A stretch of 64,000 bases of DNA from a virus (lineage: Duplodnaviria; Caudoviricetes): positions 224,001-288,000 of IMG/VR virus record IMGVR_UViG_3300028591_000072; one strand, given 5' to 3'. The notes under the pieces are model-generated. The model saw only the letters and a list, made by a program, of their open reading frames with translations, ran no database searches and had not been told where the DNA came from. The translations under genes and the position numbers were made by a program. Shown one piece after another: positions 38,381 through 47,871 of the stretch (its first letter is position 1; every line of letters starts with the position of its first letter).

Positions 38381-38452
38381 GTTGATGTGGCCGAGTGGTT
38401 AGGTAATGCTCTGCAAAAGCATACGACATGGGTTCGAATCCCTTCATCAACT
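38381..38452 (+). tRNA. tRNA-Cys(GCA)
   Basis: ATGCT-CTGCAAA-AGCAT, U73. Confidence 0.9.
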
Positions 38453-38461
38453 CAAAAATAT

Positions 38462-38876: not shown

Positions 38877-39033
38877 GGTGCTCTGGCAGATATGGTATAT
38901 GCACTGGACTGAATACAGAGTAAACTGTAAATCAAACTCTATAGTAATTCAGTTGGTAGAAACGTGAGTCGGTGGTTCGAGTCCGCCCTATAGAGCAAAT
39001 CCAGCTAAAGTGGTTCGAGTCCACTGGGCACCA
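38877..39033 (+). tRNA. tRNA-Phe(GAA) with 84-nt anticodon-loop intron (~38914-38997) containing a nested tRNA-like domain
   Basis: Removing the insert gives CTGGA-CTGAAAA-TCCAG; acceptor GGTGCTC/GGGCACC. Confidence 0.8.
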
Positions 39034-39124
39034 CAACTAAAATAACTAAATTGGTACAGATTAAAAAATAAAATTAAACGACAATGATAAAACGAAAGTA
39101 CATAAAACGAAAACATTTAAGTAG

Positions 39125-39368: not shown

Positions 39369-39429
39369 CAAAAATCTGGCACGGTTTTTGATAATGTGCA
39401 ATGGTTCTTTGAAAAAATGAAAAAAAATT

Positions 39430-39947
39430 CATTGTGCATAGGCGGGAAACCCCTATGTAGAATCTCCTAAATTCGGTGGAAATCCTTTGGTGTGCTGGTT
39501 AAACTCCAGCCTTGTAGAAATACAAGAAGAGATTTGTCTGACTAGAAAGCACTAACCAATAATGTGTAAGGACTATACCGAGCGAAAATAAGATGTAAGG
39601 GTTGAATAAACAGGTCGGCACTTTAATATGTAGAACAGAAAGAGTGAATTACATCCACAGAAACTTACTATAAACTTATAATCGTGTAGACTGAAATGGG
39701 AGATACCTAAGTTGATTTTAGCCTCATAGGAGTAATATTCGAGTAGGGAGTATAAACAGGCACTATGTCTGTCTCACTGAAAGAAGGCTATCTTGCAAGA
39801 TTTCAATATGGTAATGTCAGTTAAGACTACAACAAGCATTTAGCTCCTTGGTTCGACTCCAAGGGATGCCTGTCACGTGTTGGAAAAGGTGTCATAAGTG
39901 GGTTCCACTTGTTTGGCTATGGTAACATAGTGTGGTAAATATCAATG
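39430..39947 (+). ncRNA. Free-standing group I ribozyme-like RNA, copy 1
   Basis: P2 hairpin, P3 tctcc/ggaga, P4 ttcggt/accgag, P5 tcctt/aagga, P7 gactg/cagtt, ctatggtaacatag hairpin; no host gene visible. Confidence 0.7.
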
Positions 39948-39959
39948 TAATTTATATAT

Positions 39960-40034
39960 GGCCCCGTAGCTCAATTGGATAGTAGCGACAGCCTTCTAAG
40001 CTGTAGGTTCTGGGTTCGACTCCCAGCGGGGTCA
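39960..40034 (+). tRNA. tRNA-Arg(TCT)
   Basis: ACAGC-CTTCTAA-GCTGT. Confidence 0.92.
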
Positions 40035-40072
40035 CAAATTTAGTTCTTTGAAAAAATTGAAAAATACAAATT

Positions 40073-40673
40073 CATTGTGCATAGGCGGGAAACCCCTATG
40101 TAGAATCTCCTAAATTCGGTGGAAATCCTTTACCTAGATATGAAAAGAAGTAGGAAAATTCATCCTAAGTTTCATTAATTTGAAATAGGTTCCGCAACAC
40201 TAACAAATAATGTGTAAGGACTATACCGAGCGAAAATGAGAATAGAATGAAAAGCAAGTACAAGCAGAAGCAATTGCCTCCTTGTAGACTTCTTTATTTC
40301 TTTATATGATACTTATTGGTGGCAATTCGTAAGTATCATTTATTCTTATAAACGTGTAGAGACTGAACGGGAGATGCCTAAGTTGGAATTATATTAAGAC
40401 GATGATAGCCCAGGATTCAAAAGAGCACCCATAATGAATGGGAGGTGGTTGGTATGAAATCCAACAATTCGTTGATAATATTACTTGCAAGAATTTCAAT
40501 ATGGTAATGTCAGTCAAGACCACAATAAATAAACATACATGTCTAATGGTGAAGACAAGCGACTTGAAAAGAAAGGCTGATGTCCGAGAGGAGACGCAAA
40601 TGTGGCATTGATGTGGGTTCGATTCCCACTATGTTTGTTCGGCTATGGTAACATAGTGTGGTAAATATCAATG
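40073..40673 (+). ncRNA. Free-standing group I ribozyme-like RNA, copy 2, with two tRNA-like inserts
   Basis: Same core as copy 1 (P7 gagactg/cagtc); tRNA-like cassettes at ~40398-40474 and ~40531-40637. Confidence 0.7.
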
Positions 40674-40686
40674 TAATTTATATATT

Positions 40687-40859
40687 ACTCCTATAGTTCA
40701 AGGGATAGAACGGAAGTTTCCTATACAAGAGTAAACTTGTTAAAATCAAAACTTCATGTTGGTGAAGATGGTCACACGTGCGTTAAAATGTCTACACGAT
40801 GGTTCGAGTCCATCACATGAAGCAAACTTCTAATCTTGGTTCGAGTCCAAGTAGGAGTA
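40687..40859 (+). tRNA. tRNA-Arg(CCT) with 101-nt anticodon-loop intron (~40723-40823) containing a nested tRNA-like domain
   Basis: Removal gives GAAGT-TTCCTAA-ACTTC; acceptor ACTCCTA/TAGGAGT. Confidence 0.82.
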
Positions 40860-40913
40860 CAAAAAAAAATAACCAGATGAAAATTCTGGCACGGTCTTTG
40901 ATAATATTGCAAT

Positions 40914-41400: not shown

Positions 41401-41522
41401 TGGGATGTGGTGTAATGGTAGCACACGTAGCACTTTATGATTTCAGACACGGAATTTTACAGCAATTATTTTAGCGATGAATTTGGGTTTCCGTGGTTTT
41501 GGTTCGATTCCAGACATCCCGA
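41401..41522 (+). tRNA. tRNA-Pro(TGG) carrying a 51-nt ACAGCAA-module insertion (41428-41478)
   Basis: Removal gives CG|GAA-TTTGGGT-TTCCG. Confidence 0.7.
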
Positions 41523-42359: not shown

Positions 42360-42427
42360 GTTTTTAATAAAAGGTGACACTTTTAGGATTTTTTGCACAC
42401 CGATAGACAAGGTAAAAATCCAAGTAA

Positions 42428-42580
42428 GCCTCTTTAGTATAAAGGTTATTACACTTGACTTGTACATCAGAAGGAACTGATTAAAACCAAGCTATATTTG
42501 AAAGACAAAGCATATGCTGAAACAGCGATAGTTTCATATAGCTCAATCATGAGATGGCAGTTCGATTCTGCCAAGAGGCT
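42428..42580 (+). tRNA. tRNA-Thr(TGT) with 81-nt anticodon-loop intron (~42464-42544)
   Basis: Removal gives CTTGA-CTTGTAA-TCATG; acceptor GCCTCTT/AAGAGGC. Confidence 0.8.
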
Positions 42581-43453: not shown

Positions 43454-43585
43454 AGAAATCTAACAGCAATTAATAAATTCGTTTGACTGTAAATCAAAAG
43501 GTTGTGGGTTCGAGTCCCGCTGTCGCCAAAGATTATATTAGTTGAAGGCGACATAGCTCAATGGTAGAGAAAGAAAATGATTTCT
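43454..43585 (+). ncRNA. Circularly permuted tRNA-Tyr(GTA) closed by the ACAGCAA module
   Basis: 3' half (43480-43528) precedes 5' half (43547-43569); terminal stem AGAAATC/GATTTCT. Confidence 0.8.
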
Positions 43586-43934: not shown

Positions 43935-44654
43935 ATGTGTGATGGTTTAAATTTTAAATGTAAACAGTGTGGCGTAACATTTGAAAAAACAAAGTCTGAG
44001 TTATCAAAAAACCATAATGTTGTTCCTGTCTTTTGTTCTAAAGACTGTCAACAAAAATGGTATAAAGAAAATTCGTATATAACTGTAGAATGCAAATGTT
44101 GTGGAAAAGAATTTACAATAAAAAAAGGTGAATACAATAAAAATAAAAACAAAAACTTTTTTTGTTCACATTCTTGTGCTGCTAAATTTAATAATAAAAC
44201 TAGAACAATAAAAAAAACTGTTTTTGAAAAAGATAACAAAATTAAAATATCTAAAAAGAAAGAAGATATATATGGTGTATGTCCAATTTGCGGAAATAAA
44301 AAATTTAAGAAATCAATATTGTGCAAAAAATGTAGAAACGAGCAAAAAAGAAATAACATAAAAAAGAGAACACTTGGATATTTTATTGAAGGAAAAAAAT
44401 ATTTGGGTTCAAAATGTAATGAAATAAGAAAAGACGCAAAGAGAACAATTGAAGAAAGCTGTGTCGAAAAAACTTGTGCATATTGTCATAACCACGAGTT
44501 TGATGGCATATTAGAAGTACATCATATAAAAGGAATTTTGGAGTTTGATAAAAGCACGACAATAGAAGAAATAAATGATATTAATAACCTTGTTTGGTTA
44601 TGTCCAAATCATCACAGGATGCTTGAACTTGGATTAATTAAACTTGAAAAATAG
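43935..44654 (+). CDS. HNH endonuclease with Cys-rich N-terminal repeats
   Basis: CxxC..FCSxxC repeats; EVHHIK..NLVWLCPNHH; start moved to Met47 because the listed start overlaps tRNA-Asp. Confidence 0.85.
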   Translation: MCDGLNFKCKQCGVTFEKTKSELSKNHNVVPVFCSKDCQQKWYKENSYITVECKCCGKEFTIKKGEYNKNKNKNFFCSHSCAAKFNNKTRTIKKTVFEKDNKIKISKKKEDIYGVCPICGNKKFKKSILCKKCRNEQKRNNIKKRTLGYFIEGKKYLGSKCNEIRKDAKRTIEESCVEKTCAYCHNHEFDGILEVHHIKGILEFDKSTTIEEINDINNLVWLCPNHHRMLELGLIKLEK

Positions 44655-44660
44655 ATTAAA

Positions 44661-44789
44661 AGGAATTTAACAGCAAGTTACAATAGGTAAACACATTTGT
44701 AAACAAAACAAAGATTGTTGGTTCGAGTCCAACTGCGGCTTTAGGGGAACCGATGGCTGCATAGTGAAATGGAAGATAAATAGATTCCT
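44661..44789 (+). ncRNA. Circularly permuted Cys-like tRNA (ACA loop) closed by the ACAGCAA module
   Basis: AGGAATT/GATTCCT stem; TGCGGCT-T precedes GGCTGCA; break in the D-loop. Confidence 0.7.
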
Positions 44790-44919
44790 GTAATCTAAAA
44801 AATATAAGGAAAGAAGGACACACGTACCTTAAACAAGTACGAAAAGTTAGTGCTGGCCACATAAAGTCGCCAAGCGTCTCAGGGTGGATGCACGATAGTG
44901 AAATGTAAATTTCTTAGAT

Positions 44920-44992
44920 GGGGAGTTCATTTAGCGGTTTAGGATGCAGGTTCGACAGACCTGTCACTATGGTTCGATTCCATAACACCCCA
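44920..44992 (+). tRNA. Atypical tRNA, GAC anticodon (Val?) with C33
   Basis: CAGGT-TCGACAG-ACCTG; one A-A mismatch in the acceptor. Confidence 0.6.
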
Positions 44993-44997
44993 CAATC

Positions 44998-45225
44998 GGT
45001 TTGTTGTTGATAATCAAAGGAAAGTTGAGTTGGACATGGGTTCGAGTCCCATATGGTCCACTAAGTAATTGATTTTCAAGTAAATACGGGCCATCTTGGT
45101 TTTGACAGCTAATGAGTACAATGGAAGTAGACATCCGAGATGCCATAAAATAACTGGCAACGAAAATTATGCTTATGCTTATGCAGCAGCCTAAGGCAGT
45201 GCATTGAGCAGGTTGGCAGCGAACC
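44998..45225 (+). ncRNA. ssrA: Permuted (two-piece) tmRNA
   Basis: T-arm and ATGGTCC-A (to 45060) precede GGGCCAT-CTTGGTTTTGAC (45088); G3-U70 pair; tag GNENYAYAYAAA* at 45156-45194 after ATAACT. Confidence 0.9.
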
Positions 45226-45239
45226 AAATCGCTGCACAT

Positions 45240-45315
45240 GGTCGGTTCGTCTAGTCTGGCCTAGGACATCAGGTTTTCATCCTGGGAATCATGGGTTCAA
45301 ATCCCATACCGACTA
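45240..45315 (+). tRNA. tRNA-Glu(TTC)
   Basis: TCAGG-TTTTCAT-CCTGG. Confidence 0.9.
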
Positions 45316-46042: not shown

Positions 46043-46167
46043 GCCAAGGTAGCTCAGTGGTTTAGAGCAATGGGAGTGTATAAATGATTTTTGATTAAAA
46101 ATCTAACAGCAACTTCCAAATACCTATGTAAACCCATTGGTCGGAGGTTCGAATCCTTCTCTTGGCT
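46043..46167 (+). tRNA. tRNA (GTA or TGT depending on junction) with a 51-nt ACAGCAA-module insertion (~46075-46125)
   Basis: GCCAAGG/TCTTGGC acceptor, ATGGG/CCCAT anticodon stem; insert contains GATTTTT-GATT-AAAAATC-TAACAGCAA. Confidence 0.7.
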
Positions 46168-47138: not shown

Positions 47139-47196
47139 CGCTAATTTCGACTTTACTTTTTCACCCTTTTTACTATTTATGTATAAAAGTGGTTTT

Positions 47197-47871
47197 ATGA
47201 AAGAAAAAGAAATAGATAAAATAAGCGTGGAACAAATAAACGAAGCTTTTGAAAAGTGTGGTAATCTTAAAGAAGTTGTTTTTTATTTTGGAAAAAAATA
47301 CAATGGCGGAAGTCAACGATTTGTATATGCTTTAATGGAAAAAGCCGGAATAAAGTATTCTGATTTTTTCAAAAAAGGGAAAGAGTATTATAAAAAAAAT
47401 GTAAAGTATTGTGAAAATTGTGGAAAAGAATTGCCATATGAAAAAAGGAATAATAAATTTTGTTCTTCTTCTTGTGCAGCATCTAAAAACAATCTTGGGG
47501 TAAGAAGAAACTTTAATCCAAATAAACCAATAATACAAACAAAAGAAGAAAAAGAAAGACTGAAGTTGGAAAGATGGAAGAATGGAGAAAATTTTTTAGT
47601 TGGCTCTTGTGAAATACCAGTTTTTATAAGAAGATATTTGTTCAGTAAAAACGAATGTAAATGTGAGCGATGTGGGTGGGGTGAAATAAATGAGGACACA
47701 GGAAAAATTCCGTTGCAAATACATCACATAGATGGTGATTGCACAAACAACAAAGAAGAAAATTTACAACTACTTTGTCCAAATTGTCATAGTTTGACTA
47801 ACACATTTGGTTCGTTGAACAAAAAGTCAAAAAGATTCCATAGAAAAAAGAAAACTTTAAAAGATATATAG
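47197..47871 (+). CDS. HNH endonuclease
   Basis: CERCG..LQIHHIDGD..NN...NLQLLCPNCH. Confidence 0.9.
   Translation: MKEKEIDKISVEQINEAFEKCGNLKEVVFYFGKKYNGGSQRFVYALMEKAGIKYSDFFKKGKEYYKKNVKYCENCGKELPYEKRNNKFCSSSCAASKNNLGVRRNFNPNKPIIQTKEEKERLKLERWKNGENFLVGSCEIPVFIRRYLFSKNECKCERCGWGEINEDTGKIPLQIHHIDGDCTNNKEENLQLLCPNCHSLTNTFGSLNKKSKRFHRKKKTLKDI

What the first reader, a model, noticed from the sequence alone, without database searches (positions are those of the whole stretch)
44661..44789. Second permuted tRNA, broken in the D-loop, with a Cys-like body and ACA loop
Seen: after AGGAATT-TAACAGCAA comes GGTAAA CAC A TTTGT AAACAAA ACAAA GATT GTTGG TTCGAGT CCAAC TGCGGCT T, a spacer, then GGCTGCA TA GTG AAATGG, and the closing GATTCCT. 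Joining at the D-loop GG restores the GTG/CAC D-stem, with U73 and GGC start as in tRNA-Cys. The loop (AA-ACA-AA) lacks U33. The break point differs from the Tyr copy, so the module does not depend on a fixed tRNA position. Inference: the tRNA shape is under selection rather than decoding.
Basis: partly seen in the sequence, partly recalled or inferred. Interest (0 to 1): 0.75.

Follow-up and report, generated by a model that had tools for sequence, protein, structure and literature searches.

The report
Phage tRNA mimic opened at D-loop
A giant phage carries a small RNA gene shaped like a cysteine tRNA with its halves swapped and clamped by a conserved "handle"; its tRNA core is preserved while its anticodon drifts, so it is most likely a tRNA look-alike partner of a Ro60-shaped phage protein (a Y-RNA-like RNA) and not a working tRNA.

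Summary
Rejoined at the D-loop, 44661-44789 passes ARAGORN as a 72-nt tRNA; 0 of 150 shuffles do. Nine distinct orthologues (about four lineages) keep 242 of 243 base pairs. The D/T core varies at 1 of 43 columns, the anticodon loop at 6 of 7. Relatives carry GCA loops, one fully canonical, which supports Cys ancestry; ACA is a derived variant. An intact tRNA-Cys lies at 38381.

The clamp+ACAGCAA handle is enriched beside DUF2828 genes, whose model folds like Ro60. All nine near-complete records checked encode that gene, but this 82%-complete record does not.

Best reading: a Y-RNA-like tRNA-elbow mimic, probably cut at the acceptor spacer and not ligated. Unlike YrlA it is opened in the D-loop, keeps an anticodon arm and lacks the GNCGAA motif. 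The GG is duplicated on both sides of the break, which is unexplained. One lineage changed anticodon and discriminator together, so "shape only" is not proven.

No RNA data could be obtained. This scan has found the handle family many times on other DNA; I found no paper describing it.

The parts
44652..44658 (+). Outer helix, 5' strand (begins at the HNH stop codon)
   Evidence: Pairs 44791-97, probabilities 0.67-1.0; in the alifold consensus
44661..44667 (+). Handle clamp, 5' strand
   Evidence: 100% paired in 9 orthologues, one compensatory change
44668..44676 (+). Unpaired handle box TAACAGCAA
   Evidence: Invariant in 9 of 9; recurs across the array and in other phages
44677..44685 (+). 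Variable linker 1 (8-13 nt in orthologues)
44686..44695 (+). 3' part of the D arm: G18 G19, D-loop remainder, D-stem 3' strand CAC, A26
   Evidence: Invariant in 9 of 9; the upstream GG is also kept in cargoes that lack the 5' half
44696..44712 (+). Anticodon arm: 5-bp stem, loop AAACAAA (44701-07), no C32/U33
   Evidence: Stem 100% paired with one compensatory change; five different loops among 9 orthologues
44713..44733 (+). 4-nt variable loop and T arm with canonical T loop
   Evidence: Invariant in 9 of 9
44734..44741 (+). Acceptor 3' strand and discriminator U73 (no encoded CCA)
   Evidence: 98% paired, one compensatory pair; N73 is U in 6 and A in 3
44742..44754 (+). Acceptor spacer (7-60 nt in orthologues), likely cut or an inert loop
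44755..44772 (+). tRNA 5' half: acceptor 5' strand, U8 A9, D-stem 5' strand GTG, D-loop start, second GG
44773..44782 (+). Variable A-rich linker 2
44783..44790 (+). Handle clamp, 3' strand, plus conserved G
44791..44797 (+). Outer helix, 3' strand
43454..43585 (+). Sister handle RNA: permuted Tyr-like body opened 3' of an intact D arm; loop CTGTAAA kept in orthologues
   Evidence: weak Rfam YrlA match E 0.027
38381..38453 (+). Intact tRNA-Cys(GCA) of the same phage, unrelated in body sequence

Best explanation
This is a small non-coding RNA of about 130-146 nt, co-transcribed with the phage tRNA array, with two modules. (1) A handle, a 7-bp terminal clamp next to the unpaired box ACAGCAA, is the binding site for a Ro60-shaped ring protein (DUF2828 family), as the terminal stem is in Y RNAs. 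(2) The cargo is a tRNA-Cys-derived body opened in the D-loop and hung from the handle by two flexible linkers. It rebuilds the D/T elbow (U8-A14, A15-U48, A26-G44, G18/G19 to the T loop) and so presents a tRNA shape to host or phage tRNA-binding factors. [quoted passage not shown] It is not re-ligated into a decoding tRNA, and in this lineage the anticodon loop is free to drift. Shown: sequence anatomy, conservation pattern, gene association, Ro60-like fold of the candidate partner. Inferred: expression, folding of the D-stem, protein binding, processing, and the biological role (RNA repair/decay or counter-defence).
For: Rejoined body passes ARAGORN, shuffles do not. 242 of 243 pair cells are kept, three pairs have changes on both sides, slid controls give 38-47%. 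The core varies at 1/43 columns, the loop at 6/7, linkers at 19/23, across phages about 66-73% identical in median protein identity. An intact tRNA-Cys is present in this phage, G001 and G002. The same handle carries whole, permuted, fragmentary or empty cargo, many with acceptors sealed by 3-7-nt loops, which fits a protein-binding handle and not a splice site. DUF2828 lies in 10 of 37 true-handle loci against 4 of 77 chance matches, Fisher p 0.0017. It is present in 9 of 9 records that are at least 90% complete, and a handle sits directly before its start codon in G003 and L229. The AlphaFold model's top 13 Foldseek hits are all Ro60/Rsr/TROVE. G001 (near-identical element) and G011 (DUF2828 gene) come from one sample and cover non-overlapping parts of this genome, so they may be one phage. 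Precedent: YrlA has a conserved core with variable acceptor and anticodon regions (10.1101/312249) and is cut by RNase P when the acceptor is 7 bp (PMC4201824).
Against: This record has no DUF2828, TROVE or RtcB gene. It is 82% complete, but the position where G011 carries the gene (after the ATPase at window 53791) is present here without it. Two related DUF2828 genes have no handle upstream (L231, G011). The D-stem is neither predicted (p 0.01) nor covarying, and the cloverleaf is about 1 kcal/mol above the MFE. Close orthologues are about 96% identical in DNA, so the nine sequences are only about four independent lineages. The second GG is conserved without a role in this model. There are no expression or binding data.
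Confidence: 0.62

Rival explanations
1. Decoy for anticodon nucleases or synthetases: the handle displays a tRNA body whose loop is under diversifying selection to match or evade host tRNA-cutting defences. Compatible with the best explanation as a role, but it predicts that loop identity matters.
For: Five loops in 9 orthologues; the AAU lineage also switched U73 to A73; a separate D-loop-opened family switches among GCA, TGA and GAA loops; most cargoes keep U33; the Tyr sister keeps its loop. The Bas63 homologue gp130 counters a defence system (10.1101/2024.10.10.617714; same family, E 1.7e-146).
Against: The window's loop and those of its closest relatives lack C32/U33, and one has only 6 nt, so they are poor substrates. 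The anticodon/discriminator switch is a single event.
Confidence: 0.15
2. Relic in this lineage: the partner gene was lost and the RNA is starting to decay, anticodon loop first.
For: No DUF2828 in this record, including at the G011-syntenic site; non-canonical loop.
Against: The core, handle and all stems are intact here. The loop is already non-canonical in G001, whose probable other half (G011) has the gene. Seven handle RNAs persist in the window.
Confidence: 0.1
3. True permuted tRNA gene: the handle brings the ends together, they are cut and ligated at the duplicated GG, and the spacer is removed, giving a mature tRNA as in algal permuted tRNAs.
For: Perfect rejoined cloverleaf; GG on both sides in 9 of 9 orthologues and in a second D-loop-opened family; canonical loops in two lineages; a CCA-adding-type enzyme in the genome.
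Against: No RtcB, Rnl1 or Rnl2-type ligase found (record incomplete, and the Rnl1 control did not ring). No bulge-helix-bulge at the junction and linkers vary in length. Two other D-loop-opened families have GG upstream only and sealed acceptors. This copy's loop cannot decode, and an intact tRNA-Cys exists.
Confidence: 0.07
4. Processing punctuation only: the element provides RNase P/RNase E sites and a stable clamp that help cut the polycistronic tRNA transcript.
For: It lies between tRNA-Asp and tRNA-Val in a long one-strand array with no promoter above chance.
Against: Does not explain the invariant unpaired box, the link with DUF2828 or handles in mRNA leaders.
Confidence: 0.05

Closest known systems
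YrlA-type Y RNAs with Ro60/Rsr (Rfam RF02553; Chen et al. 2014 PMC4201824; Wang et al. 10.1101/312249; phage phiLo Yrl1/2 PMC12135203)
   Same: 5' and 3' ends joined in a stem; rotated tRNA body (T arm, acceptor, D); conserved elbow with variable acceptor and anticodon regions; a 7-bp acceptor that could be cut by RNase P; candidate partner with the Ro60 fold; several RNAs per genome.
   Different: Box is ACAGCAA, not GNCGAA; the partner is DUF2828 (12-15% identity to solved Ro60s), not Pfam TROVE; the body is opened in the D-loop and keeps a closed anticodon arm; not next to the protein gene; no Rfam match.
Bas63 gp130 and its tRNA region (PhageMaP, 10.1101/2024.10.10.617714)
   Same: gp130 belongs to the same protein family (E 1.7e-146), and three handle RNAs, one with a permuted body, lie in its tRNA array.
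   Different: The paper only speculates that some annotated tRNAs are Y RNAs; it does not describe the handle or the permuted cargo.
Circularly permuted tRNA genes of algae and archaea (from own knowledge, including D-loop break points)
   Same: 3' half before 5' half with an intervening spacer; rejoining gives a cloverleaf.
   Different: No bulge-helix-bulge, no known splicing endonuclease or ligase, non-decoding loop, redundant with an intact tRNA.
Two-piece (permuted) tmRNA, as at window 44971-45285
   Same: Acceptor halves separated by a variable intervening segment that tRNA-processing enzymes can remove, with no ligation.
   Different: No coding tag; opened in the D-loop; carries the handle.
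Dictyostelid Class I RNAs (PMC7919456)
   Same: Short terminal stem, AAG start, CUGU end, conserved motif next to the 5' strand, variable interior.
   Different: Eukaryotic, 42-65 nt, no tRNA cargo; the motif's letters were not in the text I could read, so identity with ACAGCAA was not tested.

Membership tests
YrlA Y RNA | GNCGAAN0-1G Ro-binding motif near the 5' end | tested here: not met
   Absent from 44652-44797; ACAGCAA box instead
YrlA Y RNA | Match to Rfam RF02553 | tested here: not met
   No hit at E<=10 on the element; only the Tyr sister scores, E 0.027, below the gathering score
YrlA Y RNA | tRNA-like domain with closed D and T stem-loops flanking an acceptor stem | tested here: inconclusive
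   T arm and acceptor present and conserved; D arm is open and built from distant strands
YrlA Y RNA | Encoded within about 4 kb of a TROVE/Ro60 gene | tested here: not met
   No PF05731 or DUF2828 in this record; record 82% complete
Y RNAs in the wide sense | Terminal stem joining 5' and 3' ends | tested here: met
Y RNAs in the wide sense | Associated protein has the Ro60 fold | tested here: met
   Shown for the relative G003's DUF2828 protein: top 13 Foldseek hits; association
Y RNAs in the wide sense | RNA is bound by the Ro60-like protein | not testable with these tools
   Needs a binding assay
Functional tRNA-Cys | GCA anticodon in a 7-nt loop with U33 | tested here: not met
   Loop AAACAAA; canonical only in the L032/L033 orthologue
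Functional tRNA-Cys | U73, GGC start, 3-bp D-stem with A13-A22, 4-nt variable loop (features of E. coli tRNA-Cys from own knowledge) | tested here: met
   position 1:72 is G-U here; no close tRNA-Cys sequence relative found
Algal/archaeal permuted tRNA genes | Bulge-helix-bulge at the end junction | tested here: not met
   Continuous 7-bp clamp set off from the break by variable 8-13-nt linkers
Algal/archaeal permuted tRNA genes | Ligation through a circular intermediate | not testable with these tools
Dictyostelid Class I RNA | Same 11-nt motif | not tested
   Motif letters not in the readable text; AAG start and CUGU end do match

The most novel reading that the evidence does not exclude
The duplicated GG marks a real cut-and-join site: a handle/Ro60-like particle with an unknown ligase back-splices the D-loop and releases a mature (or circular) tRNA whose identity can be switched (Cys GCA/U73 to Ile-like AAU/A73). 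This would be the first permuted-tRNA maturation pathway in a bacterial system.
Probability: 0.07. Interest if true: 0.9.

Novelty: new variant of a known kind. Interest (0 to 1): 0.58.

Why it matters
DUF2828 Ro60-like genes match 609 annotated phage records, and one member is a proven counter-defence factor, yet their partner RNAs are not catalogued. This element shows that the handle can be grafted into the D-loop itself, an attachment point not seen in YrlA, with the elbow rebuilt from distant strands. It gives a natural series (five anticodon loops, spacers of 7-60 nt, GG on one or both sides) that separates what selection keeps from what it ignores. It also warns that 'permuted tRNA genes' in phage arrays are probably mimics that tRNA scanners miss. 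The model can be tested now in E. coli phage Bas63.

Tried and rejected
Rfam at gathering and E-value thresholds: no family for the element. BLASTn of the element and of the rejoined body against annotated phages: only short T-arm matches. Alignment to 814 tRNAs from fetched loci: no close parent (the query there lacked one G, which does not change this result). TROVE, DUF2828 (Pfam, two own HMMs, tblastn), RtcB, Rnl1 and Rnl2-type ligase in the own record: none (the DUF2828 and Rnl1 Pfam controls did not ring). Relaxed ARAGORN (-ps70) was noise. Promoter scan at chance level. The genome-contig scan gave two hits that I did not follow up; one (L290) has the same length and match position as L098, which lacks the tRNA body. 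A first pair count used a mis-registered structure string and is superseded; the energies had the same offset and are superseded. Literature searches for phage permuted tRNAs, ACAGCAA motifs and DUF2828 found no description. Rejected: chance feature, random pseudogene decay, membership of YrlA, orthology with the Ile-like D-loop family (different neighbours).

Full report
Setting. The window is bases 224001-288000 of a 302.6-kb virus record estimated 82% complete. The element lies in a one-strand array of 26 ARAGORN genes, including a permuted tmRNA, between an HNH gene (43935-44654) and tRNA-Val. In close relatives the HNH gene is absent and the element follows tRNA-Asp directly.

Observation. 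All quoted segments are present. Written linearly, the element is invisible to ARAGORN and to Rfam's thresholds. Moving 44755-44770 in front of 44686-44741 gives a 72-nt cloverleaf that ARAGORN accepts at its default threshold. 192 of 806 trial rejoinings of the real sequence give a call; none do for 150 dinucleotide shuffles. The clamp extends outward by a second 7-bp helix. The conserved tRNA tertiary partners are in place (U8/A14, A15/U48, A26/G44, T-loop consensus). Folding supports the clamp and acceptor (p at least 0.95), the T arm partly (0.46), the anticodon stem weakly (0.19) and the D-stem not at all (0.01). The full cloverleaf costs about 1 kcal/mol over the minimum.

Orthologues. 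Pattern scans of viral and metagenome contigs gave 16 further loci, nine distinct sequences with the window, in about four lineages. Of 243 pair cells 242 are standard pairs. Three pairs (clamp, anticodon stem, acceptor) show changes on both sides; 2 of 500 shuffles reach this and slid controls give 38-47%. Variable columns: D/T core 1/43, handle 3/24, anticodon stem 3/10, acceptor 5/15, linkers 19/23, anticodon loop 6/7. The Fisher values overstate significance because the sequences are related. The loops are CUGCAAA (canonical Cys), AAGCAAA, AAACAAA, a 6-nt CAGAAA and CUAAUAA; the spacer ranges from 7 to 60 nt. The ACA is therefore one substitution from a GCA loop that had already lost C32/U33. 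This phage, G001 and G002 each keep an intact tRNA-Cys.

The break. GG stands on both sides in all nine sequences. A census of handle RNAs in all fetched loci found 82 distinct permuted cargoes. About 22 are opened in the D-loop, in four families; most others, including the window's Tyr copy, are opened 3' of an intact D arm. Two D-loop families have GG upstream only and acceptors sealed by 3-4-nt loops, and many fragments lacking the 5' half still keep an upstream GG. I infer that the upstream GG docks on the T loop. The second GG, shared with an Ile-like family of related phages that is not syntenic, is unexplained; it may be a relic of origin by tandem duplication or a functional site.

The handle and its partner. 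The same clamp+box encloses whole, permuted, fragmentary or empty cargo at seven places in the window and at least two in the genome's second tRNA array. Among loci fetched by the RNA pattern alone, DUF2828 genes occur in 10 of 37 with a true handle and T arm and in 4 of 77 chance matches (p 0.0017). All nine records at least 90% complete encode the gene, and in two loci fetched by protein a handle lies just before the start codon. A model of the G003 protein (pLDDT 79.7) retrieves Ro60/Rsr/TROVE structures as its top 13 matches. Against this, the own record lacks the gene, also at the site where G011 has it. I put the odds that it lies in the missing part at about even. G001, whose element is almost identical to this one, and G011, which has the gene, come from one sample, have the same GC content and cover complementary parts of this genome. 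They may be one phage, which is not proven. The own record encodes a CCA-adding-type enzyme; no RNA ligase was found.

Mechanism. Best reading (0.62): a Y-RNA-like particle in which the handle binds the ring protein and the cargo presents a tRNA elbow. The acceptor spacer may be removed to give a two-piece RNA with CCA, as shown for the YrlA with a 7-bp acceptor (PMC4201824). Rivals: loop-dependent decoy (0.15), relic (0.10), spliced tRNA (0.07), processing punctuation (0.05). The joint switch to AAU and A73 in one lineage and the frequent retention of U33 in other cargoes keep the decoy reading alive.

Comparison with what is known. It works like YrlA (conserved core, variable acceptor and anticodon parts) but fails YrlA membership on motif, Rfam match and gene adjacency. 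Bas63 gp130, a Ro60-like counter-defence protein whose authors guessed at Y RNAs among nearby tRNAs, is in the same family and has three handle RNAs downstream. The ends match the AAG/CUGU ends of dictyostelid Class I RNAs, a lead taken from earlier scan notes and only partly checked. I found no paper on the handle family. This scan has noted it in at least 42 genomes. I reached the DUF2828/Y-RNA idea before reading those notes and tested it here.

Verdict. Real and under selection; a new topological variant (D-loop-opened, anticodon arm retained) of tRNA-mimicking Y-type RNAs; binding, expression and processing are untested. Interest 0.58.

Noticed in passing
window 44810-44915: Unannotated RNA-like segment between the element and tRNA-Val, conserved in all close relatives, with compensating changes in one helix (CCAC/GTGG versus CCGA/TCGG in L032); no Rfam match.
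   Followed up: partly
L019-family, L121, L218, L191 handle RNAs: Many permuted cargoes have an acceptor loop that reads discriminator + CCA + one or a few bases, so RNase P cleavage would expose a ready CCA end.
   Followed up: no
window 43935-44654 and 47179-47871: Two HNH endonuclease genes inserted in the tRNA array; the first is absent in relatives and its stop codon overlaps the outer helix of the element.
   Followed up: partly
window 46043-46167 and 41401-41522: Handle inserted in inverted order in a tRNA anticodon arm (46043), and a second tRNA body carrying a handle insert (41401); a similar insert is present in L020.
   Followed up: no
window 38877-39040, 40685-40860, 42420-42580: tRNA genes interrupted by nested tRNA-like inserts near the anticodon; ARAGORN calls one inner piece as tRNA-??? 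at 40753.
   Followed up: no
window 39426-39960 and 40070-40680: Two group I intron-like scaffolds sharing long identical blocks, each apparently holding a T-arm-like hairpin.
   Followed up: no
G000:C1:17800-19400 (-), outside the window: Second tRNA cluster with two tRNA-Ile(TAT), Leu(TAA), Val(TAC), Gly(TCC), Met and at least two more handle RNAs.
   Followed up: partly
G000:C1:301039-302355 (-), L283: 438-aa CCA-adding/poly(A) polymerase family gene at the contig end, 93% identical to a gene in G011.
   Followed up: partly
L020:510-600 (-): The slot of the permuted Tyr copy holds a shrunken cargo (T arm, sealed acceptor, mini D hairpin, no anticodon arm) in the same handle.
   Followed up: no
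G002:167076 and L228 (G003): Relatives encode a CTA-anticodon (amber suppressor-type) tRNA; none was called in this record.
   Followed up: no
L309:16082, 16249, 16791 (Bas63, MZ501086): Three unannotated handle RNAs in the tRNA array after gp130, one with a permuted T-acceptor-D body under two spurious ORF calls.
   Followed up: partly
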